From Candidatus Zixiibacteriota bacterium (GTDB lineage Bacteria; Zixibacteria; MSB-5A5; GN15; JAAZOE01), in the NCBI GenBank assembly GCA_043819555.1, contig JBDREQ010000019.1:1-34033 (forward strand): a stretch of DNA of 34,033 nucleotides, read 5' to 3'. The notes below the pieces were generated by a model. That model was not told where the DNA came from. It saw only the letters and a program-made list of their open reading frames with translations, and did no database searches. Position numbers and translations under genes: made by a program. Shown here piece after piece: positions 10,147 through 33,821 of the stretch. Each line of letters opens with the position of its first letter. Position 1 is the stretch's first letter.

Positions 10147-10155
10147 GAAGCCACA

Positions 10156-11007: not shown

Positions 11008-11022
11008 GAATCAAATTCTTCT

Positions 11023-11991: not shown

Positions 11992-12953
11992 TGGCGACTA
12001 AGGAAAAAACTACAGGCATCAATCTTGTTGCTGCAAATGATCTGCAGTTTAGCCCAAAAACTCAAGGGTATGTTCCGCGCGGATTGACTCTTGCGGCGGT
12101 AATAATAATCATCGTGATGCTGGCGATTATTTTGGGCAATATAATATATGGTGGGGCCGGAACCATTGATTGGGAATTCTTATCACATCCTCCCGAAAAC
12201 GGAATGGAAGCCGGCGGAATATTTCCCGCGATTTTTGGAACTGTGTTTCTGGTAATACTTATGGTAATTGCGGTTGTTCCGGTAGGCGTTTTTACGGCAA
12301 TTTTTTTGCATGAATACACTTCTCCCTCGTCGAAACTGACAAGATTAATAAGAGTGGCAATTAACAATCTGGCCGGCGTGCCATCGATTGTTTTTGGGCT
12401 CTTTGGCCTGGGGTTTTTCATTGCCTTTATTGGTGGGGGGCTGGATTCAATTTTCTATGAATCGGAAGGACCCGTGTGGGGACAGCCTGCTATTATTTGG
12501 GCGTCGCTGACACTGGCATTACTAACCCTTCCGGTGGTCATTGTCTCGACCGAAGAGGCTCTGAGAACCATACCGCGCGAATTAAAGGAAGCGAGCTACG
12601 CTCTTGGAGGTACAAAATTACAGACGATAGCCCGCATTATTATTCCTCAGGCTTTGCCGGGGATTCTAACCGGAGCCATATTGGCGATTAGTCGCGGTGC
12701 GGGCGAAGTTGCGCCAATTATGTTTACCGGGGCGGCCTATTATTTGCCGTATTTACCATCGAAGCTAAACGATCAATTTATGGAAATGGGTTATCACATC
12801 TATGTCATGGCGACTCAATCACCCGACATTGAAGCTACTAAACCGATATTATATGGGACAGTGCTGGTTTTATTGATTCTCACCTTCCTATTGAATTTTA
12901 TTGCAGTATACATTCGTTCAAGCATGAGGAGAAAACGTGCAGGCATACAATAA
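11991..12953 (+). CDS. pstA: Phosphate ABC transporter permease PstA
   Basis: [28 protein letters not shown]; the ATG overlaps the pstC stop (TGATG). Confidence 0.95.
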
Positions 12954-13749
12954 TTCAGCAAATGGATCATTAAAAATTGATCAAGAAAATAAATCTGAAT
13001 ATAAGATGACCGTGAATGACCTAAATTTCTGGTACGGGGCCAATAAAGTACTGCATAATGTTTCGCTTGATATTCAGGAACACAAGGTAACGGCGTTGAT
13101 TGGGCCATCAGGATGCGGAAAATCAACGTTCCTCAGGACATTGAACAGAATGAACGAAACTATCCCCGGAACAAGGATGGAGGGAACTATAAAACTGGAT
13201 GATATTAATATTTATTCAGACATTAAAGACGTTTCCCAAATTCGAACCAGAATCGGCATGGTCTTTCAGAAATCGAATCCATTTCCAAAATCAATCTTTG
13301 ACAATATCGCCTATGGCCTAAAAGTTAACGGGATTAAAAACAATAATCTCATAGCCGAAGTGGTCGAGGAATCTTTGATTCAGGCGGCTTTGTGGGATGA
13401 AGTCAAAAATAATCTCGATAATAGCGCCTATATGCTGTCTGGCGGACAGCAGCAAAGACTCTGTATTGCCCGCGCCCTGGCTATAAGACCGGAAGTGATT
13501 TTGATGGATGAACCGGCTTCGGCCCTGGATCCTATTTCAACTTCCAAAATTGAGGATTTAATCGGAACATTAAAAAAGAAATATACGATAGTTATTGTAA
13601 CCCATAATATGCAGCAGGCGGCGCGAGTATCAGATTACACGGCCTTCTTTTTTCAGGGAGATTTGGTTGAATTTGGACAAACTAAAGAAATATTTACGAG
13701 ACCCCGCAAGAAAAAAACTGAAGATTATATAACCGGGCGTTTTGGATAA
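12937..13749 (+). CDS. pstB: Phosphate ABC transporter ATPase
   Basis: [48 protein letters not shown]. Confidence 0.97.
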
Positions 13750-13764
13750 ATAAAAGAGGATATC

Positions 13765-14427
13765 ATGACAAAACACTTTCAGAATGAAATAGAAAGATTG
13801 AAGAAGAAAATTCTTCACCTCGCTGCAATGGTTGAGGAGAGTTTGCAGATTGCTGTAAAATCCATAATGGAATATGACATTGTCCGGGCTGATAAGGTTA
13901 TAGAATCTGATCCAAAAGTTGATTCTCTTGAAGTGGAAGTAGAAGAAGAGTGTCTAAAAATACTGGCCCTTCATCAGCCGGTCGCGGCCGATTTAAGATA
14001 TATTATCGCCGTTTTGAAAATAAACAATGACCTTGAGCGAATTGCCGATCTGGCTGTCAATATTGCCGAAAGGACTAAAACTGTGGCACGGCATCCGGAT
14101 GTAGAGATACCTTTTGATCTGCATAATATGCTCAACATTACCGTTGAGATGGTTAAGGACAGTGTTGATTCACTTGTTACCAGCGATACTCAAAAGGCAA
14201 TTCAAGTAATAAATGATGATGATAAAATCGATGACCATGATGCCAATGCTTTCAATTTAGTTCAAAAGCAGATTAAAAAATATCCCGAGTATTCTGAATA
14301 TTATGTCAGCCTTCTAAGTGTTTCGCGAGATCTGGAACGGATTGCTGATCATGCCACAAATATTGCCGAGGATGTGATTTATATGATTGACGGAGAAATA
14401 GTCCGACATCAAAATAAATTGAAGTGA
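13765..14427 (+). CDS. phoU: Phosphate signalling protein PhoU
   Basis: QPVAADLR plus the duplicated DLERIAD-x-A-x-NIAE motifs. Confidence 0.96.
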   Translation: MTKHFQNEIERLKKKILHLAAMVEESLQIAVKSIMEYDIVRADKVIESDPKVDSLEVEVEEECLKILALHQPVAADLRYIIAVLKINNDLERIADLAVNIAERTKTVARHPDVEIPFDLHNMLNITVEMVKDSVDSLVTSDTQKAIQVINDDDKIDDHDANAFNLVQKQIKKYPEYSEYYVSLLSVSRDLERIADHATNIAEDVIYMIDGEIVRHQNKLK

Positions 14428-20792: not shown

Positions 20793-22523
20793 GTGGAAGA
20801 TTTTAAAGCCTCGACCATAAAATACTATTATCGTGATTTTTCTTTAGATTATGCCACCATTTTTAATAAAATGCTTGGCATAGCTAATCTCGGCCTGCCT
20901 CGGGCCGAATTTTTAAGCTGCACTGCCAAAATGCTATTAGATTTATCTGGATGTGACTTCATTGAAATTAGAAAAAAGGAGCGAAAAAAACTTATTCGTA
21001 TTGAAGCCTGTGGTTCTGATAATTATACAGATCAGATCAGTATTATCTCAATGAAGGCTGATGATCATGAGCAAATATTTCCCTGCCTGGATGAAACATC
21101 AGACTTTGAACAGATTTGCGCAGATATCGCTAATGGACAGTTCGTTCCTGAGCTGCCTTTTTATACCAAACAGGGCTCATTCTTTGTAGGCGATACCGAT
21201 AAGCCGTTTGAATTAAGTTCAAAGGCGTGTAAATGGGCTGGAGGACGAACAATCAGAATAAATGGAGAGTTTAGATCTTTGGTCGTTATCGGATTTCAGA
21301 TAGACAGTAATAATCCTGGTTTGGTCATATTCAAAAGCAAACAAAAGATGTTTTTTTCGCAGAAAGATGTAGCGGCTCTGGAAGAGATTGCCAAAATATT
21401 GGGGATGGCCTCCTCTCATCGGAGAGCGCAGGAAGCGCTTCGCGAAAGAATCAAAGAGATAACTTGTCTTTATGAAATAGTCAGTATTGCGGCGCGTCCT
21501 AATATCTCAATGAATGAGATTATCGAAGGAGTTTTGAAAATCCTTCCTCCAGGATGGTTTTATCCCGACATTGCCACAGCTCGGATCACCATTGATGGCA
21601 AATCCTACGCTCTGCCCGATTTCAAGAATTCGTTACAGAGTCTTTCTGCAGAGATTAAAGTCAAAGGGAAAAATCGAGGCAAAGTTGAAGTCGCATACAC
21701 GAAAAATATGCAGGAACTCGACGAAGGTCCTTTTATAAAAGAAGAACGCAGTCTGATAAACGCAATAGCCGATGAATTGGCCCAAATTATTGAGCGCTAC
21801 CAAATACAGGAAGAGCAAAAACAACTCAGAGAACAGCTCCAACACGCGGATCGTTTGGCAACCATCGGGCAGCTTGCCGCCGGAGTGGCGCATGAATTAA
21901 ATGAGCCTCTCAGTAGCATTCTGGGCTTTGCGCAATTGGCCAATAACAATCTGGCTAATTCAAAACAGATAGCGAATGATTTGGAGAAAATTGAATCAGC
22001 GTCTCTCCATGCCCGTGAAGTGGTCAAAAAGCTGGTTGAATTTGCTCATCAGAAACCCCAGCAAAAATCACTGGTCAATTTAAGCCAGATTGTCGATGAG
22101 GGCTTATATTTTCTTGAATCACGATGCGCCAAATCCGAAATCAAATTGATCAGGCAGCTTAAGGAAGATCTACCCGAAATCTATGCTAATAAAAGCCAGC
22201 TATATCAAGTATTGACTAATCTAATTGTGAATGCTATTCAGGCTCTGCCTTCGGGCGGAACGATAACGATTACAACGGATAAATGTGAAAATGGCATTTT
22301 GTTGACCGTATCTGATACCGGTACCGGGATAGAAGAAGAAATAATCGATGAGATTTTTAATCCTTTCTTTACAACAAAAGACATTGATGAAGGTACGGGA
22401 TTGGGTCTGGCGGTCGTTCACGGGATCATAGCAGCAAATAAGGGTACAATTAGAGTCGAAAGTACCGTCGGATGTGGAACTAAATTTGACATATTCCTTC
22501 CGATTGGTGAAATGAAACAATAA
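20793..22523 (+). CDS. Soluble sensor histidine kinase with GAF-like input domains
   Basis: H-box AGVAHELNEP, N-box NLIVNAIQA, DTGTGI, FNPFFTTK, GTGLGL; no obvious TM segment. Confidence 0.93.
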   Translation: MEDFKASTIKYYYRDFSLDYATIFNKMLGIANLGLPRAEFLSCTAKMLLDLSGCDFIEIRKKERKKLIRIEACGSDNYTDQISIISMKADDHEQIFPCLDETSDFEQICADIANGQFVPELPFYTKQGSFFVGDTDKPFELSSKACKWAGGRTIRINGEFRSLVVIGFQIDSNNPGLVIFKSKQKMFFSQKDVAALEEIAKILGMASSHRRAQEALRERIKEITCLYEIVSIAARPNISMNEIIEGVLKILPPGWFYPDIATARITIDGKSYALPDFKNSLQSLSAEIKVKGKNRGKVEVAYTKNMQELDEGPFIKEERSLINAIADELAQIIERYQIQEEQKQLREQLQHADRLATIGQLAAGVAHELNEPLSSILGFAQLANNNLANSKQIANDLEKIESASLHAREVVKKLVEFAHQKPQQKSLVNLSQIVDEGLYFLESRCAKSEIKLIRQLKEDLPEIYANKSQLYQVLTNLIVNAIQALPSGGTITITTDKCENGILLTVSDTGTGIEEEIIDEIFNPFFTTKDIDEGTGLGLAVVHGIIAANKGTIRVESTVGCGTKFDIFLPIGEMKQ

Positions 22524-22538
22524 ATTACGCCTGGGAGA

Positions 22539-23888
22539 ATGATGACAGCTAAAATAAAAGAATCCGTATTAGTTGTTGATGATGCACCCGATACATTGGA
22601 AATATTGCAGCGAAATCTATCTTCAAGGGGATATCAGGTTTTTACCGCTACCAATGTTGCGGAAGCCTTACAATTTATGGGTAATCAACCGATAGATTTA
22701 GTCATTACAGATCTCAAGATGCCCAAAATCAGCGGTACTGATCTGGTTCGCCACGTGAGAGCAAATCTCAGAGATACTGAAATCATGATGATAACCGGGT
22801 ATGCCAGCGTAGAAGGGGCTGTCCAGGCCCTCAAAGACGGGGCTGAAGAATATTTGGCAAAACCCTTTACGGACAGGGAATTGTATGATGCTGTCGAAAG
22901 AATCCTTGACAAGTTAAATACTCGGCGCAAGGCTCAGAAAGAAACCAGCCGAATATCTCCTCCTCTGGGAGGAATGATCGCGCAATCTCCACAAATGCTT
23001 GAGGTTTTCAACTCTATTTCCAAAGCTGCCGCGACATCGGCAACCGTCCTGATTACCGGAGAAAGCGGAACCGGAAAAGAACTGGTTGCTCGGGCCATAC
23101 ATTATAATAGCGACCGCGCTTCATCTTCTTTCGTCCCCATAAATTGCGGCAGTATACCGGAAGGTCTTCTCGAAAGCGAACTATTTGGACATGTCAAAGG
23201 GGCGTTTACGGGCGCTTCGGAGTCGCGGGCAGGTTTTTTTCAAACGGCTGAAGGCGGTACGATTTTTCTTGACGAGATAAGCGAAACCAGTCTTGCAATG
23301 CAAGTAAAGCTCCTGCGCGTTCTGCAGGAAAAAGAGGTAAGCATGGTTGGAGCGAGCCGATCCCGGAAAATAGATGTTCGTGTTCTGGCCGCGACAAATA
23401 AGGACTTAACATATCTGGTCAATAAAGGATTGGTGCGAGAAGATCTCTATTTCCGTTTAAGCGTGCTGACAATACTTGTTCCTCCCCTTCGTGAGCGAAC
23501 TGATGATATATTGCTATTGGCCCGGTTTTTTGGAGATAAGTACGCGGCTGAACTGGGAAAAAAGCCGCCTCAATTCTCCGATAATGCCCTAAAGGTATTG
23601 AAAAATTACAACTGGCCCGGAAATATCAGAGAATTGGAGAATTTAATTCAGCGCATGGTGATTATGATTGATGACGATATTATTGATGTTCCTGACTTGC
23701 CTTCATTAATGCGTTTTACTGCCTCCGGCCAGCGCGATTTGACTCGATCTCTGGCTGATGCGGAAACAGAGTATATTCGTCAGGTTTTGGCATCAGTTGG
23801 AGGTAATAAATCCCGGGCGGCTGAAATACTTAAAATCGATCGAAAAACACTTCGTAAAAAACTCGATTATCTTTCCAAACCAGAATAA
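22539..23888 (+). CDS. Sigma-54-dependent response regulator (NtrC family)
   Basis: Receiver domain (VVDD, TDLKMP), GESGTGKE, GAFTGA, FLDEI, WPGNIREL and a Fis-type HTH. Confidence 0.96.
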   Translation: MMTAKIKESVLVVDDAPDTLEILQRNLSSRGYQVFTATNVAEALQFMGNQPIDLVITDLKMPKISGTDLVRHVRANLRDTEIMMITGYASVEGAVQALKDGAEEYLAKPFTDRELYDAVERILDKLNTRRKAQKETSRISPPLGGMIAQSPQMLEVFNSISKAAATSATVLITGESGTGKELVARAIHYNSDRASSSFVPINCGSIPEGLLESELFGHVKGAFTGASESRAGFFQTAEGGTIFLDEISETSLAMQVKLLRVLQEKEVSMVGASRSRKIDVRVLAATNKDLTYLVNKGLVREDLYFRLSVLTILVPPLRERTDDILLLARFFGDKYAAELGKKPPQFSDNALKVLKNYNWPGNIRELENLIQRMVIMIDDDIIDVPDLPSLMRFTASGQRDLTRSLADAETEYIRQVLASVGGNKSRAAEILKIDRKTLRKKLDYLSKPE

Positions 23889-23900: not shown

Positions 23901-23933
23901 GGGGAGTAACTCCCCGCCGGGGAATATATCCCC
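23901..23933. promoter_or_regulatory. Tandem palindromes GGGGA-N5-TCCCC: putative enhancer sites for the sigma-54 activator
   Basis: GGGGAGTAACTCCCC (23901-23915) and GGGGAATATATCCCC (23919-23933), about 155-190 bp upstream of the candidate -24/-12 promoter. Confidence 0.65.
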
Positions 23934-24086
23934 AATAAATAGCTTGTAACTATGCTTCCTTTGCCAGATCAGGCATTCGCCTTAAAAAAAATATGTGAAA
24001 TTTTTCACATTGTCATTCAATGAGTTATGTCTAAATATTTCCAATTAAAACTCTAAAGACTCCCCTATATACTCCTTCTTCGCATA

Positions 24087-24103
24087 CTGGTATGCTATTT
24101 GAT
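24087..24103 (+). promoter_or_regulatory. Putative sigma-54 (-24/-12) promoter with variant -12
   Basis: CTGGTATGCTATTTGAT has correct GG-N10 spacing but GA in place of GC at -12; it lies about 55 nt before the first operon gene. Confidence 0.5.
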
Positions 24104-24158: not shown

Positions 24159-24461
24159 ATGTTAAGTTCTGCTCCACTTGATAGGATGGGTTTATGTTCG
24201 ACCTGTAATAATTCACCGGATTGCGGCTACAGAATGTTAAGAGGATTTGACGCGATTTTCTGTGAGTTATTCGATAACTATACCGCCGGCAGCGGCATTC
24301 AAAGGAACAAAATATCTGTACCCGCCCCCAGAGAGAACAGGCTTTACCCCGCTGCAGTAAACAATGGCTTTAAGGGATTGTGTATAAATTGCGAAAACAG
24401 AAGCGTTTGCTTCCTGCCAAAGCATGAAGGTGGAATATGGCATTGTGAGGAATACCGCTAA
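24159..24461 (+). CDS. Small Cys-rich protein with a duplicated GLCxxCxNxxxC...CE module
   Basis: GLCSTCNNSPDC...FCELF and GLCINCENRSVC...HCEEY; AAGGAG RBS. Confidence 0.8.
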   Translation: MLSSAPLDRMGLCSTCNNSPDCGYRMLRGFDAIFCELFDNYTAGSGIQRNKISVPAPRENRLYPAAVNNGFKGLCINCENRSVCFLPKHEGGIWHCEEYR

Positions 24462-24512
24462 AATAGAGCGGTATAAATTTAGAACCTGATTGATAATTAA
24501 AAGGTAACAAAA

Positions 24513-25364
24513 ATGATCAATACTAATGTTGTTGATGGAGGCAAGAGTGCCTCAAAGGATCAAGGCGGTCTGATATCGACATTGGAAAAAATACAAGCCA
24601 AATATGGCTATCTTCCTGAAGAAGAATTGCGGCGTGTTTCGCAAGATGATGGGTTGTCTTTGGTTGATATTTATGGGGTCGCGACTTTTTATAAGGCTTT
24701 TAGTTTAAAGCCAAGAGGGAAACACCTCATTTCGGCATGTTTGGGAACCGCCTGTCATGTTCGCGGCGGCCCGGTGATTGCCAAAGAAATTGAAAAGCAA
24801 CTGAATATAAAATCAGGGGAGACTACTCCCGATGGTGAGTTCACGCTGGAAACTGTGAATTGTCTTGGAGCCTGCGCCCTTGGGCCTGTCGTTGTTGTTG
24901 ATGGCCATTATTTTTCGAACGTGAAGGCTGGGAGAGTTAAAGAAATAATCGAAAAAACTCTGGAAGGATTTGGAGTTGTTGAAACCATATCAGATCAGCG
25001 CGTTTTTCCGATTGAGGTCAGTTGTGCTCGCTGCAATCATAGCTTGATGGATTCCAATCATATCATGGACGGCCATCCCAGCATAAGAGTTACAATATCA
25101 TTTGGCAACAAACACGGCTGGCTTGTCCTATCCAGTGTTTATGGCAGTGATAAGGTTAATCTTCAATATAAAATTCCCCCTGATACCGTCGTCCAGATGT
25201 TCTGTCCCCATTGCCATGCCGAGCTAATCGGCGGAACTGCCTGCCTCCTGTGCGAAGCGCCGATGGTGCCAATGATTGTTCATGGTGGCGGAATCGTTCA
25301 GATTTGCTCTCGTCATGGATGCAAAGGACATTTGCTGGATTTGGGCGGCTCATCCGTTGCATAG
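24513..25364 (+). CDS. HydC/NuoE-like [2Fe-2S] subunit with a Cys-rich C-terminal extension
   Basis: VATFY, CLGTACHVRG, VNCLGAC; extra domain with CARC, CPHC, CLLC and CSRHGCKGH. Confidence 0.9.
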   Translation: MINTNVVDGGKSASKDQGGLISTLEKIQAKYGYLPEEELRRVSQDDGLSLVDIYGVATFYKAFSLKPRGKHLISACLGTACHVRGGPVIAKEIEKQLNIKSGETTPDGEFTLETVNCLGACALGPVVVVDGHYFSNVKAGRVKEIIEKTLEGFGVVETISDQRVFPIEVSCARCNHSLMDSNHIMDGHPSIRVTISFGNKHGWLVLSSVYGSDKVNLQYKIPPDTVVQMFCPHCHAELIGGTACLLCEAPMVPMIVHGGGIVQICSRHGCKGHLLDLGGSSVA

Positions 25365-25400
25365 GCCGGGTTAAACTTCGCTTTTAGGAGAGATTAATAG

Positions 25401-28400
25401 ATGGAAAAACTTACAATGATTGACGGACTTCGTGATTTCCGCGATCGTATTTTAAGTGAAAAAGATATCGAATACGACAAACCTACTTTGGTTATATGCG
25501 GTGGGACGGGTGGGCTGGCAAGCGGCGCTAACGATGTTATCCGGGCCATCAAGCGTTACATGATTGAACGCAATCTGCAGGGCAAACTTGCCATCAGGAT
25601 TACTGGTTGCCAGGGGTTCTGTGAAATGGATCCTTTTATACTGGTGAAGCCGGGAAGCCATTTGTATCCCCGGCTCAAAATGAGTGATGTGCCGATGGTC
25701 ATAGACGCCGCCATGGGCGGCTATGTCGCGGAAAGTCTGATTTATAAGGATTCCAAAAAGAAAGAAATAATTAAAACCCAGAATGATATTCCCTTCTTTA
25801 AAAAACAGACCAGGACCATTCTGGGATTTAACGAACATATCGATCCTATTCGAATTTACAATTATATAGAGCAGGGTGGATATGCCGCGGCCGAAAAAGT
25901 TCTATCCAATCCCGATCCCCAATCGATAATTGATGAGGTTCAAAAGGCTGGAATAAGAGGTCGCGGCGGAGCCGGTTTCCCCACCGGGAAAAAATGGGAA
26001 TTTGCGCATAAATCAGGAAAACCAGGCGAACAGAAATATATAATCTGCAATGCCGATGAAGGCGATCCAGGAGCATATATGGATCGCAGTCTGCTGGAAG
26101 GCAACCCCCATATGATAATTGAGGGAATGCTGGTCGCAGGCGTTGCGATTGGCGCCACAAAAGGCATAATATATGTACGTAGCGAATATCCCCTCGCCAT
26201 AAAACATGCTCTGATTGCCCTCAGGCAGGCCCGTGAGCTGGGAGTTCTCGGACAAAATATTCTGGGCACCGGCATTGATTTTGATATTGAAATATTCCGC
26301 GGAGCGGGAGCCTTTGTCTGCGGCGAAGAAACGGCCCTGATTAAATCAATCGAAAATATGATGGGTGAACCCAGACAGCGTCCTCCCTTTCCGATTGAAA
26401 AAGGACTCTGGGGCCATCCCACTTGTATTAACAACGTCGAAACGCTGGCCAATATTCCTGTCATTATAAATAATGGCGGCGAAGAGTATGCCAAAGTGGG
26501 CATCCCGGGAAATACGGGGACCAAAATATTCTCCCTTGTCGGCAAAATCAGGAATACGGGATTGGTCGAAGTTCCTCTGGGAACCAAAATTAGTGAAGTT
26601 GTTTATGATATCGGCGGCGGCGCGGTAGGAAACGGCAAAATAAAGGCCGTACAGACCGGCGGTCCCTCAGGGGGCTGCATTCCGGCCCATCTGTTTGATA
26701 TGTCAATCGATTATGACAGTCTGGCCGCAGCCGGATCAATCATGGGCTCGGGCGGCATGATTGTCATGGATGATAATACTTGCATGATAGATGTCGCCAA
26801 ATATTTCATGAATTTTCTGAGAGATGAATCATGCGGCAAATGCTTTACCTGCCGCAAGGGTACCCAGCGCATGTATGAAATCCTTGATGACATTTCACGA
26901 GGCCGGGCGACCCTGGCTGATCTGGATCTCCTCGAGGAATTGGCTCTTGTTGTAAAAGATACGACCATGTGTGGTCTGGGCCAGTCCGCCTCCAATCCGG
27001 TTCTAAGCACTCTGCGCTATTTCCGCCATGAATATGAACGCCATATCATCGATAAAAAATGTGACGCCTTTGTCTGCAAGGAATTGGTCGGCTCGCCGTG
27101 CCAGTCGGCCTGTCCGGTCGGGACGGAGGTGTGGCGCTACGTCGCTCATATAGAGAGAGGCGAATTTGATGAGGCCTATCTGACGATTCGCGAGGCCAAT
27201 CCGTTCCCATCAATTTGCGCGCGGGTCTGCAATCATCCCTGCGAATCACGATGCCGGGCGGGCGTCTCCGGAGGCGATCCAATTGCTATCCGTTCCCTTA
27301 AGCGTTTCGTTACCGACCATACGGACCCGGCAATTTACAAACCGGAAATTACCCCCTGGACCAAAGGTGAACCGCCCAGAATCGCGGTTGTCGGATCTGG
27401 CCCGGCAGGTTTAACAACGGCGCACTATCTCTCACTTATGGGATATAAAGTCACAATTTTTGAATCAGAAGATAAACCGGGCGGAATGCTCTATTGTACC
27501 ATCCCATCCTATCGTCTCCCCAGAAATGTGATCGAAAAAGAAATAGATTCCCTCCTAAATGAAAATATCACCTTGAAATGCAATACGGCATTAGGCAAAG
27601 ATTTTACGGTAGAGGGATTACTTGAAGATGGGTACAAAGCTGTTCTGTTGGCGCTTGGCGCTCACAAGAGCAAACCATTGCGTCTCGAAAATGAGGATAT
27701 TGATGGCGTATATCCGTCAATTCAATTCTTGAAATCTCACAATATCAAGGATAAACCTCTGGCCCAGGGTATGGTGGGCATTATCGGCGGAGGCAATTCA
27801 GCCCTTGATGCCGCCCGAACTGCCTTGCGCCAAAAAGGGATTAAGAGTGTAACTATTCTGTATCGAAGAACGCGGGAAGAGATGCCTGCCTTCGACGAGG
27901 AAATTGAAGCGGCTGTTGAAGAGGGCGTCAAGCTGGTCACGTTAGTTTCGCCGACTAAGATTTTTTCTTCAAATGGAAAACTGAACGCAGTCGAATGCAT
28001 TCAGAATGAACTCGGCGAATATGATTCAAGCGGCCGCCGCCGTCCGGTTCCAAAAGAGGGCACCGAACATACCATTGAACTCGATACCCTTATTGTTGCT
28101 ATTTCGGAGGATACGGGAATTGAATCAGTTGCCCCGGCCAGTCTCAACTTGACCAATTGGAACACAATAAAAACGTCGCCGGAAACTTTACAAACCAATC
28201 TGCCGGGAGTATTTGCTGCTGGCGATGTTATCACAGGTCCAAACACGGTTATAGATGCGATCGCCGACGGTAAAAAGGCGGCGATGATAATTGATCGGTA
28301 TATCAATGGAGTTCAAATGAAACAGGATGCATCAACGGCCTTGCCGCAATTCTATATCGCCCCTGCATCAGATGACGGTGATGAAGGAAAAACAACCAAT

Positions 28401-28583
28401 CGCGTTGCGGCCAGGCACACATCAGCCGAATCCCGAAAAAATAATTTCGAGGAAGTCGAACTTTGTCTATCAGAAAATGAGGCAATATGCGAGGCGGGGA
28501 GATGCTTGCGCTGCGATTTGGAATTCACTCAACCCAAAAATAATGCTAATGAACTAATTCCCGAGGGAGTGAAAGAACTATGA
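25401..28583 (+). CDS. HydB/NuoF-like FMN/NADH subunit fused to a GltD/NfnB-like FAD/NADPH oxidoreductase
   Basis: GRGGAGFP, NADEGDPGAYMDR, GAGAFVCGEETAL, ESCGKCFTCR...CGLG; then PCQSACP, CARVCNHPCESRC, GSGPAG, GGGNSA, YRRT and FAAGD. Confidence 0.92.
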   Translation: MEKLTMIDGLRDFRDRILSEKDIEYDKPTLVICGGTGGLASGANDVIRAIKRYMIERNLQGKLAIRITGCQGFCEMDPFILVKPGSHLYPRLKMSDVPMVIDAAMGGYVAESLIYKDSKKKEIIKTQNDIPFFKKQTRTILGFNEHIDPIRIYNYIEQGGYAAAEKVLSNPDPQSIIDEVQKAGIRGRGGAGFPTGKKWEFAHKSGKPGEQKYIICNADEGDPGAYMDRSLLEGNPHMIIEGMLVAGVAIGATKGIIYVRSEYPLAIKHALIALRQARELGVLGQNILGTGIDFDIEIFRGAGAFVCGEETALIKSIENMMGEPRQRPPFPIEKGLWGHPTCINNVETLANIPVIINNGGEEYAKVGIPGNTGTKIFSLVGKIRNTGLVEVPLGTKISEVVYDIGGGAVGNGKIKAVQTGGPSGGCIPAHLFDMSIDYDSLAAAGSIMGSGGMIVMDDNTCMIDVAKYFMNFLRDESCGKCFTCRKGTQRMYEILDDISRGRATLADLDLLEELALVVKDTTMCGLGQSASNPVLSTLRYFRHEYERHIIDKKCDAFVCKELVGSPCQSACPVGTEVWRYVAHIERGEFDEAYLTIREANPFPSICARVCNHPCESRCRAGVSGGDPIAIRSLKRFVTDHTDPAIYKPEITPWTKGEPPRIAVVGSGPAGLTTAHYLSLMGYKVTIFESEDKPGGMLYCTIPSYRLPRNVIEKEIDSLLNENITLKCNTALGKDFTVEGLLEDGYKAVLLALGAHKSKPLRLENEDIDGVYPSIQFLKSHNIKDKPLAQGMVGIIGGGNSALDAARTALRQKGIKSVTILYRRTREEMPAFDEEIEAAVEEGVKLVTLVSPTKIFSSNGKLNAVECIQNELGEYDSSGRRRPVPKEGTEHTIELDTLIVAISEDTGIESVAPASLNLTNWNTIKTSPETLQTNLPGVFAAGDVITGPNTVIDAIADGKKAAMIIDRYINGVQMKQDASTALPQFYIAPASDDGDEGKTTNRVAARHTSAESRKNNFEEVELCLSENEAICEAGRCLRCDLEFTQPKNNANELIPEGVKEL

Positions 28584-29278
28584 TTAAGATAAATATAAAT
28601 GGCCTTGACCTTTCCGTCGAGCAGGGAACGACAATTCTTGAAGCGGCGCAGTTTTTGGGTTTTCCGATTCCGACTTTGTGCCACATGGAAGGCTTGAAAG
28701 ATTACGGCGCTTGCCGATTGTGCATTGTCGAAATCGGCGAAGGCCCCCGCTCAAAACTGGTTTCATCCTGCACCTATCCTGTCGAGGAAGGACTCAAGGT
28801 GCGAACGGCATCAAAACGAGTCATGCGAGCTCGGAAAATGATACTGGAACTCCTGCTGGCATCATGCCCTCAGTCCAAAATCATTCAGGATTTGGCCTCC
28901 AAATTCGAAGTTCGCCAGCAGCGCTTTCGCCAGGAACATGAAGATTGCATTCTCTGCGGATTATGCGTGAGAATGTGCGAAGAGCAGATGGCTGCCAAGG
29001 CGATTGGATTTCGAGGACGAGGTCGAAACCGCAGCATCGGGACGCCTTTTGATGTCAAATCAGAAGTGTGCCGCTTATGCGGAGGATGTATTTATGTTTG
29101 TCCGGCATGTCAATTGAGATGTACTTATACTGATCCCGATAAAGCAATCTGCGGCGGTTGCGCCAATATCAGCGCACCCTGCATTGAAAAAGAAAAATTT
29201 AACGATATGATGTGTTATATGGATCCCTGCGTGGCTTGCGAAATAGACAAAGAGTCATGCGGGAAAGGAGGAAAATAA
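28580..29278 (+). CDS. HydA/NuoG N-terminal-like FeS subunit ([2Fe-2S] + 2x[4Fe-4S]) without a catalytic domain
   Basis: PTLCH...GACRLC...SSC; CILCGLCVRMC; CRLCGGCIYVCP; nine further Cys in the tail; ATGA overlap with the upstream gene. Confidence 0.9.
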   Translation: MIKININGLDLSVEQGTTILEAAQFLGFPIPTLCHMEGLKDYGACRLCIVEIGEGPRSKLVSSCTYPVEEGLKVRTASKRVMRARKMILELLLASCPQSKIIQDLASKFEVRQQRFRQEHEDCILCGLCVRMCEEQMAAKAIGFRGRGRNRSIGTPFDVKSEVCRLCGGCIYVCPACQLRCTYTDPDKAICGGCANISAPCIEKEKFNDMMCYMDPCVACEIDKESCGKGGK

Positions 29279-29280
29279 GA

Positions 29281-30864
29281 ATGTCATTTACCAGAGTAAA
29301 TGCCTCGGCCGCGACTTTGACCAAGAACAGGACAGAGGATTCCGTTACTCGTCTATCAGGAATGTGCGTCACCTGCGTCGATGGCTGTATCGGAATGTGC
29401 GAAATAGGGAAATCGGCTTATAGAGGTCACGAAGTAATTTATCCCCAACCCTTCGGCGTTATTACGACCGCTTCGGAGAAGTCTTACCCCGTCGATTATT
29501 CTCATTTGAATATTATCGGGGGCGTAATAGGCGCCAAAGGCATTGAAGCCGACAGTGATAAGGCAGTCTTTCCCAATGTCAACCTGGAAGTTCATTTTGG
29601 CCATGATAAAGGAATTAAATTCCGTCTGCCTATAATGATTCCGGGGATCGGTTCTACCGATGTCGCCAAAAATAACTGGGAAGGTCTGGCGATAGGTTCC
29701 GCCCTGGCCGGGACCGGTTTAACGATCGGCGAAAATGTCGTCGGTATGGATACTGAGGCGGTCATCAAGAACGGCCGTGTCGTCGATACCGTTGACCTTA
29801 AACGCCGCGTTAACCTGTTCAAAGATAATCAGCGCGATGGCTACGGCGCGACTATCGTACAAGCCAATATTGAAGATACCCGACTCGGCGTCCAGGAATA
29901 TGCCATCGAAAAACTCGGAGTGGAATGGGTCGAGCTAAAATGGGGTCAGGGCGCCAAAAATATTGGCGGTGAGGTAAAAATCAGAGATCTTAAAAAGGCT
30001 CAAATGCTGTACAAACGGGGTTATGTAGTCCTTCCTAATCCCACCAATCCTGATGTTATCAAGGCCTTTGAACGTGGTACCTTTAAAGAATTTGAGCGGC
30101 ATTCACGGGTCGGCATGGTAACCGAAGAATCATTCGCCAAACGCATTGAAGAGTTGCGCGCGGCGGGCGCCAAGTATATATCACTCAAAACCGGCGCCTA
30201 TCGTCCGGCGGCTCTGGCCCTGGCCTTGAAATTCGCGTCGAAATACAAACTTGACGTTCTTACCGTTGACGGAGCCGGAGGCGGTACAGGAATGAGTCCT
30301 TGGCGTATGATGAACGAGTGGGGCATCCCCCCGGTTGAATTGCATTCGCTCCTTTATAACTATGCCAAAAAACTCGCCGACAGGGGCGAACATATCCCGG
30401 CATTGATTCCAGCTGGTGGGTTTACCTTTGAAGATCAAATATTCAAGGGTCTTGCCCTCGGAGCCCCGTTTGTGAAAATGATCGGAATGGCCCGAGGCCC
30501 GATTGCCGCGGCAATGGTTGGTAAAACCCTTGGACGCACAATTAGCCAGCATCAACTTCCCGTTTATGTCGAGCGATTTGGCACCAGTATAGATGAAGTA
30601 TTCGTGACGGCCGGTGATTTGAGAAAAGAGCTGGGAGATGATGAATTTGAAAAACTGCCAACAGGAGCAATCGGTCTTTATACTTATTACGAACGTTTGG
30701 CACAGGGATTACGTCAATTGATGGCCGGAAGCCGAAAGTTTTCGCTGGAGCATATGACTCGCGATGATTTGATAGCTTTAACGCCCGAAGTTTCGAAAAT
30801 ATCCGGCATTACCTATGTCATGGACGTCGATAAAGAAGAAGCCGAAAAAATCCTGAATGCATAA
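29281..30864 (+). CDS. FMN-binding glutamate synthase family protein (stand-alone FMN barrel)
   Basis: TIGEN, ELKWGQGAK-x-x-GG, DGAGGGTG, EWGIP and AGG motifs; N-terminal CVTCVDGCIGMC. ATG at 29281 behind AGGAGG. Confidence 0.88.
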   Translation: MSFTRVNASAATLTKNRTEDSVTRLSGMCVTCVDGCIGMCEIGKSAYRGHEVIYPQPFGVITTASEKSYPVDYSHLNIIGGVIGAKGIEADSDKAVFPNVNLEVHFGHDKGIKFRLPIMIPGIGSTDVAKNNWEGLAIGSALAGTGLTIGENVVGMDTEAVIKNGRVVDTVDLKRRVNLFKDNQRDGYGATIVQANIEDTRLGVQEYAIEKLGVEWVELKWGQGAKNIGGEVKIRDLKKAQMLYKRGYVVLPNPTNPDVIKAFERGTFKEFERHSRVGMVTEESFAKRIEELRAAGAKYISLKTGAYRPAALALALKFASKYKLDVLTVDGAGGGTGMSPWRMMNEWGIPPVELHSLLYNYAKKLADRGEHIPALIPAGGFTFEDQIFKGLALGAPFVKMIGMARGPIAAAMVGKTLGRTISQHQLPVYVERFGTSIDEVFVTAGDLRKELGDDEFEKLPTGAIGLYTYYERLAQGLRQLMAGSRKFSLEHMTRDDLIALTPEVSKISGITYVMDVDKEEAEKILNA

Positions 30865-30915: not shown

Positions 30916-30954
30916 ATGACGCCTCTTGTCTCCTTAAGAGGCGTCATATTTTTT
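30916..30954 (+). terminator. Intrinsic terminator of the redox operon
   Basis: Perfect 12-bp stem ATGACGCCTCTT / AAGAGGCGTCAT followed by ATTTTTT. Confidence 0.85.
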
Positions 30955-31012
30955 CCATTCTTTTTTGAGAATCACAAATTTATAAATCCTGCCCTCAAAA
31001 GGGATGATACTG

Positions 31013-32834: not shown

Positions 32835-33821
32835 ATGAGCAAGGCATCTTTTTACGTCGGGATTGATGTTGGTTCTCAAGAATTGGTAGCGGCGGTTGAA
32901 AACCGCAAACCCAGAAGTTTCAAACACAGCCGAGCTGGAATCAAAGCAATGATCAAATGGGCTCAAAAGCTGGCTCCAGAAACACCCTTGCATTTTTGTC
33001 TTGAAGCGACCGGCGTTTATGGTTATTCGCTAGCTTGCCGTTTACATCAAGACCATCAAGTGACAGTAAGCGTTATCAATCCGGCTCAGATTGCTTCTTA
33101 TGCCAAAGCCCAGTTGCGCCGGACAAAAACTGATAATGTTGATGCCAGAGTTATTCATTCTTTTGCTCAAAGCCAGAATCCTCGGGTATGGAAGCCGGAG
33201 TCGTCAACCATTCGCCAGCTCTATTATCTTGTCGTTGAAGCTGACCGAATTGGCAAAACGATGGGACAATGGAATAATCGAAAGCATGGTCATAAATACC
33301 TTAACGATCTCCCTCAAATTATCAAACAAACGAATAAAGCTCTTCAGAGAGCGATGACCAGGCAGTTGGAAAAAATAGAGCAGGCTATTTTGGAACTCTG
33401 CCAACAGAACAAAGAACTTAAGCAAGATGTTCAACTCCTTTGCTCCATCCCGGGTGTTGCAAATCATTCAGCGGTGAGGATTTTGGCTTATGGCAAAAAT
33501 ACGTTAAGGGATTTCAGCCGCAATGCACTGACCGCTCATGCCGGATTGGCGCCAGGACAAAAACAATCGGGAACCTCTATCCACGGCAAATCCCGAATCG
33601 CCAAACAAGGAGACAGTAGACTCAGGAAAACGTTGTATATGCCTGCCCTCGTTGCCGCTTATCACAACCCAACATTAAAATTATTCTATCAAAGATTACT
33701 GGAAAACGGAAAACCGAAAATGGTCGCCATCGTCGCCGTAATGAAAAAACTACTCCTGATGATTCAAGCTATACTCAAAAAGAAAATACCCTATGGCCCT
33801 AACTTTGCTCTTGACTCTTAA
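32835..33821 (+). CDS. IS110-family DEDD recombinase/transposase
   Basis: GIDVG, LEATG and KTDNVDA (DEDD); SIPGV, AGLAP-x-x-x-QSG (catalytic Ser region), GDSRLRK, VAVMKKL. Confidence 0.96.
   Translation: MSKASFYVGIDVGSQELVAAVENRKPRSFKHSRAGIKAMIKWAQKLAPETPLHFCLEATGVYGYSLACRLHQDHQVTVSVINPAQIASYAKAQLRRTKTDNVDARVIHSFAQSQNPRVWKPESSTIRQLYYLVVEADRIGKTMGQWNNRKHGHKYLNDLPQIIKQTNKALQRAMTRQLEKIEQAILELCQQNKELKQDVQLLCSIPGVANHSAVRILAYGKNTLRDFSRNALTAHAGLAPGQKQSGTSIHGKSRIAKQGDSRLRKTLYMPALVAAYHNPTLKLFYQRLLENGKPKMVAIVAVMKKLLLMIQAILKKKIPYGPNFALDS

What the first reader, a model, noticed from the sequence alone, without database searches (positions are those of the whole stretch)
24159..30864. HydABC/Bfu-type flavin-FeS complex paired with an amidotransferase-less glutamate-synthase FMN subunit
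Seen: one sigma-54-type operon encodes HydC-, HydB- and HydA-N-like subunits but no H-cluster, NiFe or Mo/W catalytic domain. The only candidate substrate-converting subunit is a stand-alone glutamate-synthase-family FMN barrel. It has an N-terminal CxxCxxxCxxxC, no glutamine amidotransferase domain, and no C-terminal [3Fe-4S] Cys motif. Established: HydABC-type cores couple NAD(H) and ferredoxin to diverse catalytic partners. Inference: this is an uncharacterised NADH/NADPH-linked amino-acid or imine oxidoreductase, for example ammonia-dependent glutamate formation or glutamate oxidation, possibly with electron bifurcation.
Basis: partly seen in the sequence, partly recalled or inferred. Interest (0 to 1): 0.72.

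Follow-up and report, generated by a model that had tools for sequence, protein, structure and literature searches.

The report
Hydrogenase-type redox complex, glutamate-synthase-like subunit
This operon encodes an uncharacterised iron-sulfur flavoenzyme that joins the NADH/ferredoxin core of electron-bifurcating hydrogenases to a very conserved, distant relative of the flavin domain of glutamate synthase; it is widespread in uncultured anaerobes and is repeatedly linked to glutamate dehydrogenase genes.

Summary
Window 24159-30864 is one tightly packed plus-strand operon: a Cys-rich 100-aa protein, then NuoE/HydC-like, NuoF/HydB-like, short HydA-N-like and a 527-aa FMN protein. A histidine kinase and a sigma-54 activator precede it and a strong terminator follows.

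The core is Bfu-type: its best solved relatives are bifurcating HydB, NfnB and Wor-Bfu. It has mostly lost the N-terminal [2Fe-2S] site.

The FMN protein is only a distant GltS relative, with a partial Pfam hit and an undecided fold. It keeps QGAK and an Arg 20 residues later, where GltS binds 2-oxoglutarate. Its only four Cys form the N-terminal motif.

All 78 of 80 related loci with upstream DNA keep the gene order, at about 80% identity across many phyla. In 14 loci GltD is absent.

Eleven glutamate dehydrogenase genes of several lineages sit in 10 of 80 loci, one behind a duplicated promoter.

Best guess (0.4): an NAD(P)H/ferredoxin-linked, ammonia-dependent 2-oxoglutarate/glutamate oxidoreductase. 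It is not a simple GOGAT substitute.

I found no paper describing it. This scan has met the same cassette on many other genomes.

The parts
20793..22523 (+). Cytoplasmic histidine kinase (576 aa). The N-terminal ~350 aa sensor region has no known domain. Its residues ~215-330 resemble the N-part of the PPDK_N/nucleotidyltransferase protein found next to the cassette elsewhere.
   Evidence: Pfam HisKA and HATPase_c only. tblastn hits of residues 215-330 lie downstream of the FMN gene in several loci. The kinase is conserved upstream of the cassette in other phyla.
22539..23888 (+). Sigma-54-dependent response regulator (REC + AAA+ sigma-54 interaction domain + HTH_8).
   Evidence: Pfam Sigma54_activat E 1e-68, Response_reg, HTH_8. 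Proteins 58-70% identical sit upstream of the cassette in many loci.
23901..23933 (.). Two tandem palindromes, GGGGAGTAACTCCCC and GGGGAATATATCCCC. They are candidate activator binding sites and could also act as the terminator of the regulator gene.
   Evidence: The pattern occurs only 3 times in the 3.35-Mb genome, two of them here. With at most 1 mismatch it is found in 15 of 33 homologous promoter regions and in 0 of 33 control stretches.
23994..24028 (+). Composite element TGTGAAATTTTTCAC...TGAGTTAT (the first part resembles a CRP/FNR site), shared with the promoter region of the GDH-PPDK_N pair on contig C16 of the same genome.
   Evidence: The composite pattern occurs exactly twice in the genome: C19:23994 and C16:1521. 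It is not conserved in other loci.
24088..24103 (+). Sigma-54 -24/-12-like promoter TGGTATGCTATTTGAT (the -12 element reads TTGA instead of TTGC).
   Evidence: A strict pattern is present in 16 of 33 homologous regions, about 200 nt after the regulator gene.
24159..24461 (+). Cys-rich 100-aa protein with two CxxCx5C...C half-repeats. It could be a small Fe-S or Zn protein, perhaps a dedicated electron carrier or an assembly or sensor factor.
   Evidence: No Pfam or NCBIfam family. The protein atlas returns only 'hypothetical protein' clusters. tblastn finds it in 25 of 80 loci at 30-52% identity, always between the regulator and BfuC.
24513..25364 (+). BfuC (HydC/NuoE-like, [2Fe-2S]) with a ~135-aa Cys/His-rich C-terminal extension that resembles a zinc ribbon.
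   Evidence: Pfam 2Fe-2S_thioredx at residues 14-148. The best PDB hits are HydC of bifurcating hydrogenases and cover residues 14-148 only. The extension gives only weak zinc-ribbon hits.
25401..28583 (+). BfuB (HydB/NuoF-like: FMN, NADH site, B1 and B2 clusters) fused at about residue 555 to a GltD-like module (2x[4Fe-4S], FAD, NAD(P)H). The GltD module replaces the usual C-terminal ferredoxin domain.
   Evidence: B1 ligands are C478/C481/C484/C524. B2 ligands are C461, S499, H548, C554 and C559, aligned to 7t2r C438/C476/H525/C531/C536. The B5 site reads C33, G38, C70, C74.
28580..29278 (+). Short BfuA (HydA-N/NuoG-N-like): a [2Fe-2S] site (C34, C45, C48, C64), two CxxCxxCxxxC motifs and eight more conserved Cys at the C-terminus. 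It has no His-ligated cluster and no catalytic domain.
   Evidence: Pfam Fer2_4 and Fer4_7. The best PDB hit is 9mqx_A (Wor-Bfu BfuA, E 4e-39, residues 2-187). Conservation is shown in alignment A2. Its start overlaps the BfuB stop by 4 nt.
29281..30864 (+). Catalytic candidate: a 527-aa FMN (beta/alpha)8 barrel with the N-terminal motif C29-x2-C32-x3-C36-x3-C40. It is a remote relative of the GltS synthase domain. Motifs: Q223-G-A-K226, R246, FERHSR 271-276, K303, DGAGGGTGMSP 330-340.
30916..30957 (+). Intrinsic terminator (13-bp stem followed by a T-run) that ends the operon.

Best explanation
What is shown. The five genes form one sigma-54/two-component-controlled operon for a soluble iron-sulfur flavoprotein complex of the Bfu (HydABC-like) family. 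BfuC and BfuB form the NADH-binding flavin core. A short BfuA wires this core to a separate FMN/[4Fe-4S] subunit, which is a remote relative of the glutamate synthase FMN domain. In this window BfuB also carries a GltD-type FAD/NAD(P)H module.

What is inferred. The FMN subunit binds 2-oxoglutarate through the retained Gln-Gly-Ala-Lys...Arg motif. Free ammonia, with no glutaminase domain involved, forms 2-iminoglutarate, and reduced FMN converts it to L-glutamate; the reaction may also run in reverse. Electrons would travel from NADH to the BfuB FMN, then to cluster B1, the BfuA clusters, the N-terminal cluster of the FMN subunit and finally its FMN. The GltD module would offer a second entry or exit for NADPH. 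Cluster B2, together with the GltD clusters (or the ferredoxin domain in GltD-less relatives), would offer a branch to ferredoxin. The reaction may therefore be coupled to ferredoxin by bifurcation or confurcation.

The physiological direction is open. This genome has no P-II, Amt or GOGAT but has several GDH genes, so I lean towards glutamate/2-oxoglutarate redox balancing in an amino-acid-using anaerobe rather than scavenging of scarce ammonium.
For: Operon anatomy, overlapping or near-abutting genes and the terminator.

Bfu-type core. BfuB residues 25-564 match 7q4v HydB at E 2e-191, followed by 7t2r, 9n5u NfnB, 9mqx and 8oh5; complex I NuoF reaches only 1e-108. B1 and B2 ligands, including the diagnostic His, are kept. 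BfuC matches HydC. BfuA matches the BfuA of Wor-Bfu.

Co-inheritance. BfuA lies directly upstream of the FMN gene in 78 of 80 loci; the other 2 have under 130 nt of upstream DNA. BfuB is seen in 73 of 80 loci. Identity of the FMN protein is about 78-90% under many phylum-level labels.

GltS likeness. Pfam Glu_synthase scores 55 bits against a cut-off of 20.4. The motifs KWGQGAKNIGGE and DGAGGGTGMSP are collinear with GltS KxAQGAKPGEGG and SGHDGGTGASP. K226 and R246 are 20 residues apart, exactly as K937 and R957 in Azospirillum 1ea0, which correspond to Synechocystis K972 and R992. That these residues contact 2-oxoglutarate is recalled, not taken from a call.

Glutamate link. There are 11 GDH genes of at least 3 lineages (24-39% identity between lineages) in 10 of 80 loci. 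They are on the same strand in 8 loci, at either end of the operon. I expect about 1 such locus by chance, reckoning from 3 GDH matches in 3.35 Mb. In L028 the same 16-mer sigma-54 promoter and the same palindrome stand before both GDH and the operon. In the own genome a composite element found only twice precedes this operon and the GDH-PPDK_N pair on C16.
Against: No assay exists. The relation to GltS is remote: no PDB hit by sequence; the profile reaches 1ea0 only at E 0.89; hhalign gives probability 13.5%, with only residues 280-410 aligned confidently.

Fold searches rank lactate monooxygenase, glycolate oxidase, flavocytochrome b2, IDI-2 and IMPDH level with GltS or above it.

A GDH next to an enzyme that catalyses the same net reaction would be redundant. 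Clustered genes more often encode consecutive steps.

The 2-oxoglutarate+NH4+/glutamate couple is more positive than NAD+/NADH at ordinary ammonium levels. Known Bfu third substrates lie near -400 mV (my own knowledge).

The B5 cluster, part of the proposed bifurcating core, lacks a ligand here and keeps all 4 Cys in only 11 of 59 relatives.

The operon does not track absence of GOGAT. GXGXG is found in 0 of 239 genomes of the own phylum, while the FMN protein is found in 103 of those 239. In a Phycisphaerae-class sample GXGXG occurs in 8 of 18 carriers and 127 of 172 non-carriers. In a second class it occurs in 2 of 9 carriers and 40 of 192 non-carriers.
Confidence: 0.4

Rival explanations
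1. The complex is the same, but the FMN subunit acts on another small acid. The most attractive version is reduction of 2-oxoglutarate, the product of GDH, to 2-hydroxyglutarate. Another 2-oxo, imino or enoate dicarboxylate is also possible. GDH and the complex would then catalyse consecutive steps of amino-acid fermentation, with NADH as donor and possibly ferredoxin as a second acceptor.
For: The fold is at least as close to FMN-dependent 2-hydroxy-acid oxidases and dehydrogenases (Z about 26, rmsd 3.4-4.4 over about 300 residues) as to GltS. Gene clustering with GDH fits consecutive steps better than redundancy. The family has an invariant FERHSR motif with a His and two Arg. The own genome has HGD-D/BcrAD-type genes and lacks P-II and Amt, which suggests a life on amino acids.
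Against: Pfam finds Glu_synthase but not FMN_dh. At the position of the catalytic His of the hydroxy-acid oxidases (SNHGGRQ, recalled) the protein has DGAGGGTG, like GltS. The HGD-D cluster looks Bcr-like and has no glutaconate CoA-transferase. The cassette with GDH also occurs in an anammox Scalindua MAG (L027), an autotroph by my own knowledge, where glutamate fermentation is unlikely.
Confidence: 0.25
2. The complex is not electron-bifurcating. It would be a plain NADH- and/or NADPH-dependent reductase built from Bfu parts, and ferredoxin would play no role.
For: The N-terminal [2Fe-2S] site B5 is C33, G38, C70, C74 here. All four Cys are kept in only 11 of 59 relatives. Schut et al. place B5 in the bifurcating core and report that non-bifurcating homologues lack B2-B5 (section 5 part 1 and section 6 part 1 read). 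In the window the ferredoxin-type B3/B4 domain is replaced by GltD.
Against: The B2 ligands are kept, including the His that Schut et al. report as absent from non-bifurcating homologues. The 14 GltD-less relatives keep the normal B3/B4 ferredoxin domain. The closest solved relatives are all bifurcating enzymes.
Confidence: 0.3
3. The NuoE/NuoF-GltD/HydA-N set is by itself an Stn/Nfn-Bfu-like NADH:NADP+:ferredoxin transhydrogenase. The FMN protein would be an accessory electron sink or a regulatory subunit, not the main catalytic site.
For: The domain inventory equals that of Stn and NfnABC. The GltD part matches NfnA 9n5u_A (E 4e-102) and Stn 8oh5_C (E 3e-94).
Against: GltD is missing in 14 loci that keep BfuC, BfuB, BfuA and the FMN protein. 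The FMN protein and BfuA are the most conserved parts (about 80% identity, against about 60-65% for BfuB and BfuC). In Stn and Nfn-Bfu the GltD-like domain sits on BfuA, not on BfuB (section 5 part 1 of PMC9304861 read).
Confidence: 0.1
4. The FMN protein is a piece of a conventional glutamine-dependent glutamate synthase, completed by amidotransferase and GXGXG subunits encoded elsewhere (the archaeal-type split GltS).
For: Split GltS enzymes exist (my own knowledge). One carrier genome (G242) also holds a canonical-type stand-alone Glu_synthase protein.
Against: There is no GATase_2 and no GXGXG in the own genome, which is 97% complete. GXGXG is found in 0 of 239 genomes of the phylum, although the FMN protein is found in 103 of them. 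The [3Fe-4S] motif is absent.
Confidence: 0.03

Closest known systems
WorABCSL (tungsten aldehyde oxidoreductase-Bfu of Acetomicrobium mobile, PDB 9mqx), a 'Type 2' Bfu enzyme in the scheme of Schut et al. 2022 (PMC9304861)
   Same: It has a BfuBC core and a short BfuA of about 230-250 aa without a catalytic domain, which passes electrons to separate catalytic subunits. BfuA aligns to 9mqx_A over residues 2-187 (E 4e-39), BfuB to 9mqx_B (E 1e-177) and BfuC to 9mqx_C.
   Different: Here the catalytic subunit is an FMN/[4Fe-4S] TIM barrel of the GltS superfamily, not a tungstopterin enzyme. BfuB carries a GltD fusion in place of the ferredoxin domain. The B5 site is degenerate. BfuC has a 135-aa Cys-rich tail, and BfuA has eight extra conserved Cys.
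Stn / NfnABC (Nfn-Bfu) transhydrogenases (PDB 8oh5, 9n5u, 9bov)
   Same: They have the same four modules: NuoE-like, NuoF-like, HydA-N-like and a GltD-like NADPH/FAD module. Sequence matches are strong.
   Different: There the GltD-like module is fused to BfuA and there is no further subunit (section 5 part 1 of PMC9304861 read). Here it is fused to BfuB, is dispensable (absent in 14 loci) and comes with an extra FMN subunit.
Synthase (FMN) domain of glutamate synthase large subunit (GltB / Fd-GltS; PF01645; PDB 1ea0, 1ofd)
   Same: It is an FMN (beta/alpha)8 barrel. The motifs QGAK...R and GGTGxSP are shared and collinear. It partners with a GltD-type module in most loci.
   Different: The new protein has no amidotransferase, central or GXGXG domain. 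It has no [3Fe-4S] Cys motif and carries a four-Cys motif at the N-terminus instead. It has an insertion of about 20 residues before FERHSR. Only about 17-18% identity is seen in structure alignment, and sequence searches do not connect the two significantly.
Dihydropyrimidine dehydrogenase and FMN/[4Fe-4S] enoate reductase-type enzymes (my own knowledge)
   Same: The logic is the same: a GltD-like NADPH/FAD/2x[4Fe-4S] module feeds an FMN TIM barrel through Fe-S clusters.
   Different: The barrel family differs (DHO_dh or OYE). Pfam does not assign the window protein to those families.

Membership tests
Bfu (BfuABC/HydABC-like) electron-bifurcating family | BfuB is closer to bifurcating HydB/NfnB than to respiratory NuoF | tested here: met
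   7q4v_B E 2e-191, 7t2r_B 3e-190, 9n5u_B 3e-181, 9mqx_B 1e-177; the best complex I NuoF reaches 2e-108.
Bfu (BfuABC/HydABC-like) electron-bifurcating family | B1 [4Fe-4S] ligands and B2 [2Fe-2S] ligands, including the His reported as absent from non-bifurcating homologues | tested here: met
   C478/C481/C484/C524 are kept in 66-67 of 67 aligned relatives. C461, S499, H548, C554 and C559 align to 7t2r C438, C476, H525, C531 and C536. A Ser at the C476 position is comparable to the Thr that Schut et al. report in two-thirds of BfuB sequences.
Bfu (BfuABC/HydABC-like) electron-bifurcating family | B3/B4: a C-terminal 2x[4Fe-4S] ferredoxin domain on BfuB | tested here: not met
   In the window this domain is replaced by the GltD N-terminal Fer4_20 domain. 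The canonical domain is present in the 14 GltD-less relatives.
Bfu (BfuABC/HydABC-like) electron-bifurcating family | B5: an N-terminal [2Fe-2S] cluster with four Cys | tested here: not met
   The window has C33, G38, C70, C74. Of 59 relatives whose N-terminus is present, 11 have CCCC; the rest have Pro, Ser, Thr, Asn or Cys at the first position and mostly Gly at the second.
Bfu (BfuABC/HydABC-like) electron-bifurcating family | BfuC with the C1 [2Fe-2S] cluster, and a BfuA homologue with an N-terminal [2Fe-2S] and [4Fe-4S] clusters | tested here: met
   Pfam 2Fe-2S_thioredx E 2e-45. HydC of 8a6t matches at E 3e-39. BfuA matches 9mqx_A at E 4e-39, and its Cys are conserved in A2.
Bfu (BfuABC/HydABC-like) electron-bifurcating family | Coupled NAD(H)/ferredoxin/third-substrate activity | not testable with these tools
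   This needs an enzyme assay.
Glutamate synthase synthase domain (PF01645 / GltB) | Match to the family profile above the curated cut-off | tested here: met
   55.3 bits against a cut-off of 20.4, but only profile positions 185-303 of 369 are matched. IMPDH of the same genome also crosses this cut-off (26 bits), so the cut-off is permissive.
Glutamate synthase synthase domain (PF01645 / GltB) | The [3Fe-4S] Cys motif after the last barrel strands | tested here: not met
   The protein has no Cys beyond residue 40.
Glutamate synthase synthase domain (PF01645 / GltB) | Glutamine amidotransferase, central and GXGXG domains, fused or as separate genes | tested here: not met
   No GATase_2 and no GXGXG in the own genome. 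GXGXG is found in 0 of 239 genomes of the phylum.
Glutamate synthase synthase domain (PF01645 / GltB) | The 2-oxoglutarate-binding Gln/Lys/Arg (Synechocystis Q969, K972, R992 = Azospirillum Q934, K937, R957) | tested here: inconclusive
   Q223-G-A-K226 and R246 keep the same 20-residue spacing, and a low-stringency hhalign run pairs these columns. The confident alignment covers only residues 280-410. The role of these residues in GltS is recalled.
FMN-dependent 2-hydroxy-acid oxidase/dehydrogenase family (PF01070) | Profile match and a catalytic His/Arg in the SNHGxRQ motif | tested here: inconclusive
   The fold match is Z about 26. There is no Pfam FMN_dh hit. The aligned stretch reads DGAGGGTG. 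The motif itself is recalled.
Stn / Nfn-Bfu transhydrogenase | The GltD-like NADPH module is fused to BfuA, and the complex has three subunits | tested here: not met
   The GltD module is on BfuB, a fourth FMN subunit is always present, and GltD is absent in 14 loci (section 5 part 1 of PMC9304861 read).

The most novel reading that the evidence does not exclude
The complex is a third, so far unrecognised route between ammonium and glutamate, alongside GDH and GS-GOGAT. It would be an ammonia-dependent glutamate synthase built on an electron-bifurcating Bfu core. In one mode the joint oxidation of NADH (or NADPH) and reduced ferredoxin would pull reductive amination at very low ammonium without spending ATP. 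In the other mode NADH-driven amination would be used to reduce ferredoxin and so conserve energy. That would add amino-acid and nitrogen metabolism to the substrates of the Bfu family, in hundreds of uncultured anaerobic species.
Probability: 0.3. Interest if true: 0.85.

Novelty: new variant of a known kind. Interest (0 to 1): 0.66.

Why it matters
Known or predicted third substrates of Bfu-type enzymes are H2, formate, NADP+, aldehydes, CO, pyruvate, F420, quinones and peroxide (abstract of PMC9304861). A GltS-like FMN subunit would extend the family to amino-acid or 2-oxo-acid chemistry.

The cassette is very widespread: at least 601 species genomes encode a close relative, and more than 8000 protein clusters were scored. 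It is held at about 80% identity across phyla and travels with its own sensor and regulator, so it must do something important in anoxic sediments. It is annotated only as 'FMN-binding glutamate synthase family protein'.

Knowing its reaction would change how nitrogen and redox budgets are read from metagenomes of Zixibacteria, Ignavibacteria, Planctomycetota (including anammox Scalindua), Acidobacteriota and others. Many of these genomes lack GOGAT.

Tried and rejected
1. Complex prediction of BfuA (A2) with the FMN protein (A1): no verdict, score 0.00 in both runs, controls not run. This is evidence neither for nor against binding.

2. RNA runs holding the operon: no RNA holder listed.

3. 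'The operon replaces GOGAT': rejected as a general rule. GXGXG is found in 0 of 239 genomes of the own phylum, whether or not they carry the FMN protein (103 of 239 do). It occurs in 8 of 18 carriers against 127 of 172 non-carriers in a Phycisphaerae-class sample (11 genomes holding only divergent paralogues were set aside, and all 11 have GXGXG). It occurs in 2 of 9 against 40 of 192 in the class of G243.

4. Fold search to decide the family: Foldseek and VIA-align do not separate GltS from hydroxy-acid oxidases, IDI-2 and IMPDH.

5. Profile comparisons. A1 against a single GltB gave probability 4.7%. A1 against 8 GltB FMN domains gave 13.5%. The global mode failed.

6. The palindrome TGTGA-N6-TCACA (TGT-N10-ACA) as a conserved activator site: it is not present in 17 other promoter regions, and none of the other 10 genomic copies has a sigma-54-like site nearby.

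7. Divergent FMN paralogues (42-50% identity, 8 loci) as a clue to partners: none has Bfu genes nearby. One (L103) lies beside an NrpR-like regulator, a class-I amidotransferase/peptidase C26 gene and canonical gltBD, which is suggestive but is a single case.

8. The second PF01645 'hit' in the genome is IMPDH.

9. Literature. Searches found no paper describing this complex. PMC9304861 has no occurrence of 'glutamate' in its main text or in the one supplementary file held as text (its large tables could not be seen). I read passages of PMC12018979, PMC8097209, PMC6046458, PMC6338057 and PMC5736913. None mentions the cassette.

10. The hydroxyglutarate pathway in the own genome: HGD-D/BcrAD genes exist, but in a Bcr-like cluster without a CoA-transferase, so this is inconclusive.

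Full report
**What is in the window**

Window 24159-30864 holds five plus-strand genes with almost no spacing:
- a 100-aa protein with eight Cys in two CxxCx5C...C half-repeats and no family hit;
- a NuoE/HydC-like protein of 283 aa;
- a 1060-aa NuoF/HydB-like protein;
- a 232-aa HydA-N/NuoG-N-like protein whose start overlaps the previous stop;
- an FMN protein.

The longest ORF of the FMN protein begins at GTG 29212. Its likely start is ATG 29281, two bases after the preceding stop, which gives 527 aa, the length of nearly all of the 120 listed homologues. A 13-bp-stem terminator follows at 30916-30947.

A cytoplasmic histidine kinase (20793-22523) and a sigma-54-dependent response regulator (22539-23888) lie directly upstream. 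The rest of the window is unrelated. It holds a Pst phosphate transporter, helicase, BipA and other genes, with an oppositely oriented Zn-alcohol dehydrogenase and an IS110 transposase downstream.

The description is accurate except in one respect. The 'HydB-like' gene carries a fused GltD-like module: Fer4_20 at residues 556-641 and Pyr_redox_2 at 660-957, with NCBIfam 'NAD(P)-binding protein' PRK12771 at E 1e-132. The FMN barrel is therefore not the only substrate-handling part.

The FMN protein has exactly four Cys (C29, C32, C36, C40), so the N-terminal CxxCxxxCxxxC motif is real and the GltS [3Fe-4S] motif is absent. The genome is 3.35 Mb and 97% complete. It has no GATase_2 and no GXGXG domain. 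The only other PF01645 'hit' is IMPDH.

**The redox core is Bfu-type**

Residues 25-564 of the large protein match bifurcating HydB (7q4v, E 2e-191), NiFe-HydB (7t2r), NfnB (9n5u), Wor-Bfu B (9mqx) and Stn (8oh5). These matches are far better than the one to complex I NuoF (1e-108).

Schut et al. 2022 define the ligands of the NiFe-HydB clusters (section 6 part 1 read). Using that definition:
- The B1 Cys are conserved.
- The B2 ligands are conserved (C461, S499, H548, C554, C559), including the His that the authors report as missing from non-bifurcating homologues.
- The N-terminal [2Fe-2S] site (B5) reads C33, G38, C70, C74. All four Cys are kept in only 11 of 59 relatives whose N-terminus is present.
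- The C-terminal ferredoxin domain (B3/B4) is replaced in the window by the GltD Fe-S domain.

The NuoE-like protein matches HydC over residues 14-148 and has an unmatched, Cys/His-rich extension of 135 aa.

The HydA-N-like protein is closest to the short BfuA of the tungsten aldehyde oxidoreductase-Bfu (9mqx_A, E 4e-39). It keeps the [2Fe-2S] site, two ferredoxin-type motifs and eight further conserved Cys.

**The FMN subunit**

More than 8000 protein clusters match it; the 120 best listed are 81-100% identical to it. In contrast, only 1082 representatives out of 1.8 billion reach E 1e-3. The family is therefore tight and stands apart from canonical GltB.

Evidence on its family:
- There is no PDB hit by sequence. 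A family profile reaches 1ea0 only at E 0.89.
- The AlphaFold model (pLDDT 82.9) is an FMN (beta/alpha)8 barrel. Foldseek puts lactate monooxygenase, GltS (1ofd, 17% identity), glycolate oxidase, IDI-2 and IMPDH at the same E of about 1e-10. VIA-align gives Z of about 26 for flavocytochrome b2, glycolate oxidase and IDI-2. The fold alone does not decide the family.
- At sequence level Pfam sees only Glu_synthase.
- The motifs KWGQGAKNIGGE, FERHSR, LKTG, DGAGGGTGMSP and AGGFxxEDxIFKGLALGA are collinear with GltS motifs.
- Mapping a canonical GltB onto 1ea0 and 1llw shows that the GltS QGAK Lys and the Arg of IARLR are K937/R957 in Azospirillum and K972/R992 in Synechocystis, 20 residues apart. 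The window protein has K226 and R246 at the same spacing. That these residues hold 2-oxoglutarate is my recollection of the GltS structures. The confident profile alignment does not reach this region.

**Conservation and distribution**

Of the 80 best loci from species genomes, 78 have the BfuA gene immediately before the FMN gene. The other two have under 130 nt of upstream DNA. BfuB is seen in 73 of the 80 loci. The order kinase, regulator, (Cys-rich protein), BfuC, BfuB, BfuA, FMN recurs under labels from Ignavibacteria, Zixibacteria, Planctomycetota (including Scalindua), Acidobacteriota, Bacteroidota, Verrucomicrobiota, Fibrobacterota and delta- and alpha-proteobacteria.

In 14 loci BfuB is about 616 aa long and ends in the ordinary HydB 2x[4Fe-4S] domain, so the GltD module is optional.

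The distribution is patchy. The FMN protein is found in 103 of 239 genomes of the own phylum, and a same-genus genome lacks it. With about 80% identity across phyla and its own regulators, the cassette looks like a horizontally mobile accessory module. I did not test that with trees.

Divergent stand-alone paralogues (42-53% identity) keep the N-terminal Cys motif but have no Bfu genes nearby.

**Regulation**

- A strict sigma-54 -24/-12 pattern occurs in 16 of 33 homologous regulator-to-BfuC intergenic regions. The window has TGGTATGCTATTTGAT at 24088.
- A palindrome GGGGA-N5-TCCCC occurs three times in the own genome, twice in tandem at 23901 and 23919. With at most one mismatch it occurs in 15 of 33 homologous regions and in 0 of 33 control stretches.

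**The link to glutamate**

Eleven glutamate dehydrogenase genes lie in 10 of the 80 loci:
- between the Cys-rich gene or the regulators and BfuC in L023, L027, L028, L054 and L067;
- on the same strand after the FMN gene in L025, L026, L033 and L067;
- convergent with a PPDK_N-type gene in L045 and L051.

They belong to at least three lineages, only 24-39% identical to each other, and they accompany both GltD-fused and GltD-less forms. This points to repeated, independent recruitment.

In L028 the same 16-mer promoter and the same palindrome precede both GDH and the operon.

In the window's own genome a GDH and a 990-aa PPDK_N/nucleotidyltransferase protein lie together on contig C16. They are 64% and 56% identical to the pair that sits next to the cassette in L045. 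The composite element TGTGAAAnTTTTCAC...TGAGTTAT occurs only twice in the genome: before that pair and before this operon.

The PPDK_N-type protein lies right after the FMN gene in 11 loci. Its N-terminal part resembles kinase residues ~215-330.

**What it probably does**

Shown by the calls: a Bfu-type NADH module, an optional NADPH module, a chain of Fe-S proteins and a GltS-like FMN/Fe-S subunit are inherited and regulated as one unit, and this unit is tied to GDH.

Inferred: the FMN subunit interconverts 2-oxoglutarate plus free ammonia with glutamate, exchanging electrons with NADH, NADPH and perhaps ferredoxin.

Points against this reading:
- It would be redundant with GDH.
- The couple has a fairly positive potential at ordinary ammonium levels.
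- The B5 site is degenerate.
- The relation to GltS is remote.
- The cassette shows no consistent complementarity with GOGAT.

The genome has no P-II, no Amt and no GOGAT, but it has two glutamine synthetase genes and two or three GDH genes. I therefore lean towards a role in glutamate/2-oxoglutarate redox metabolism of an amino-acid-using anaerobe rather than ammonium scavenging. The presence of the cassette with GDH in an anammox Scalindua MAG argues the other way.

The main rival keeps the complex but changes the substrate: reduction of 2-oxoglutarate to 2-hydroxyglutarate, or of another acid, as the step after GDH.

**Novelty**

I found no paper on this cassette. The Bfu family paper does not mention glutamate in its main text or in the one supplementary file held; its large tables could not be seen.

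Earlier agents of this scan met the same cassette on many other genomes and reached similar readings, including the GDH link. I found the GDH link independently, before I read those notes.

Points I believe are added here:
- the degenerate B5 site;
- the independent recruitment of several GDH lineages;
- the duplicated promoter and palindrome in L028;
- the element shared with the GDH-PPDK_N pair in this genome;
- the negative tests for GOGAT complementarity.

Noticed in passing
own genome G000 (outside the window): The 97%-complete genome has no P-II (PF00543), no Amt ammonium transporter (PF00909), no GATase_2 and no GXGXG. It does have two glutamine synthetase genes and two or three GDH genes. 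No genome of 239 in its phylum has a GXGXG domain.
   Followed up: partly
G000:C16:1521-7180; also L004, L007, L037, L045, L046, L051, L080: A protein of about 1000 aa with a PPDK_N (ATP-grasp) domain and an NTP_transf_2 nucleotidyltransferase domain lies next to the cassette in 11 of 80 loci. In this genome it lies next to GDH on another contig. Its N-part resembles the sensor region of the cassette's histidine kinase. It may be a regulatory enzyme of the same system.
   Followed up: partly
L097-L104 (Phycisphaerae-class genomes): Stand-alone paralogues of the FMN protein (42-50% identical) have no Bfu genes nearby. One (L103) sits between an NrpR-like regulator with a class-I amidotransferase/peptidase C26 gene on one side and canonical gltD-gltB on the other.
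   Followed up: partly
G000:C63:146000-165500 (L115): This is a cluster with three HGD-D and three BcrAD_BadFG genes (benzoyl-CoA-reductase-like or 2-hydroxyacyl-CoA-dehydratase-like). It also holds an 842-aa HydA-N + GltD protein (Stn/NfnA-like), an ADP-forming acyl-CoA synthetase, an SSF transporter and a ketopantoate-reductase-family gene.
   Followed up: no
L092 and L095 (Scalindua rubra MAG, G241): The anammox MAG carries two copies of the cassette-type FMN protein and no canonical PF01645 protein. One copy is in an operon with GDH (L027).
   Followed up: no
window 24963-25364: The NuoE-like subunit has a C-terminal extension of 135 aa with several CxxC pairs. It gives weak zinc-ribbon hits only and is not covered by any solved HydC/NuoE. 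Three loci (L065, L067, L069) lack it.
   Followed up: partly
window 9028-14427 and 32835-33821: The first stretch is a porin-PstSCAB-PhoU phosphate uptake operon. The second is an IS110-family transposase at the end of the contig, close to the cassette.
   Followed up: no
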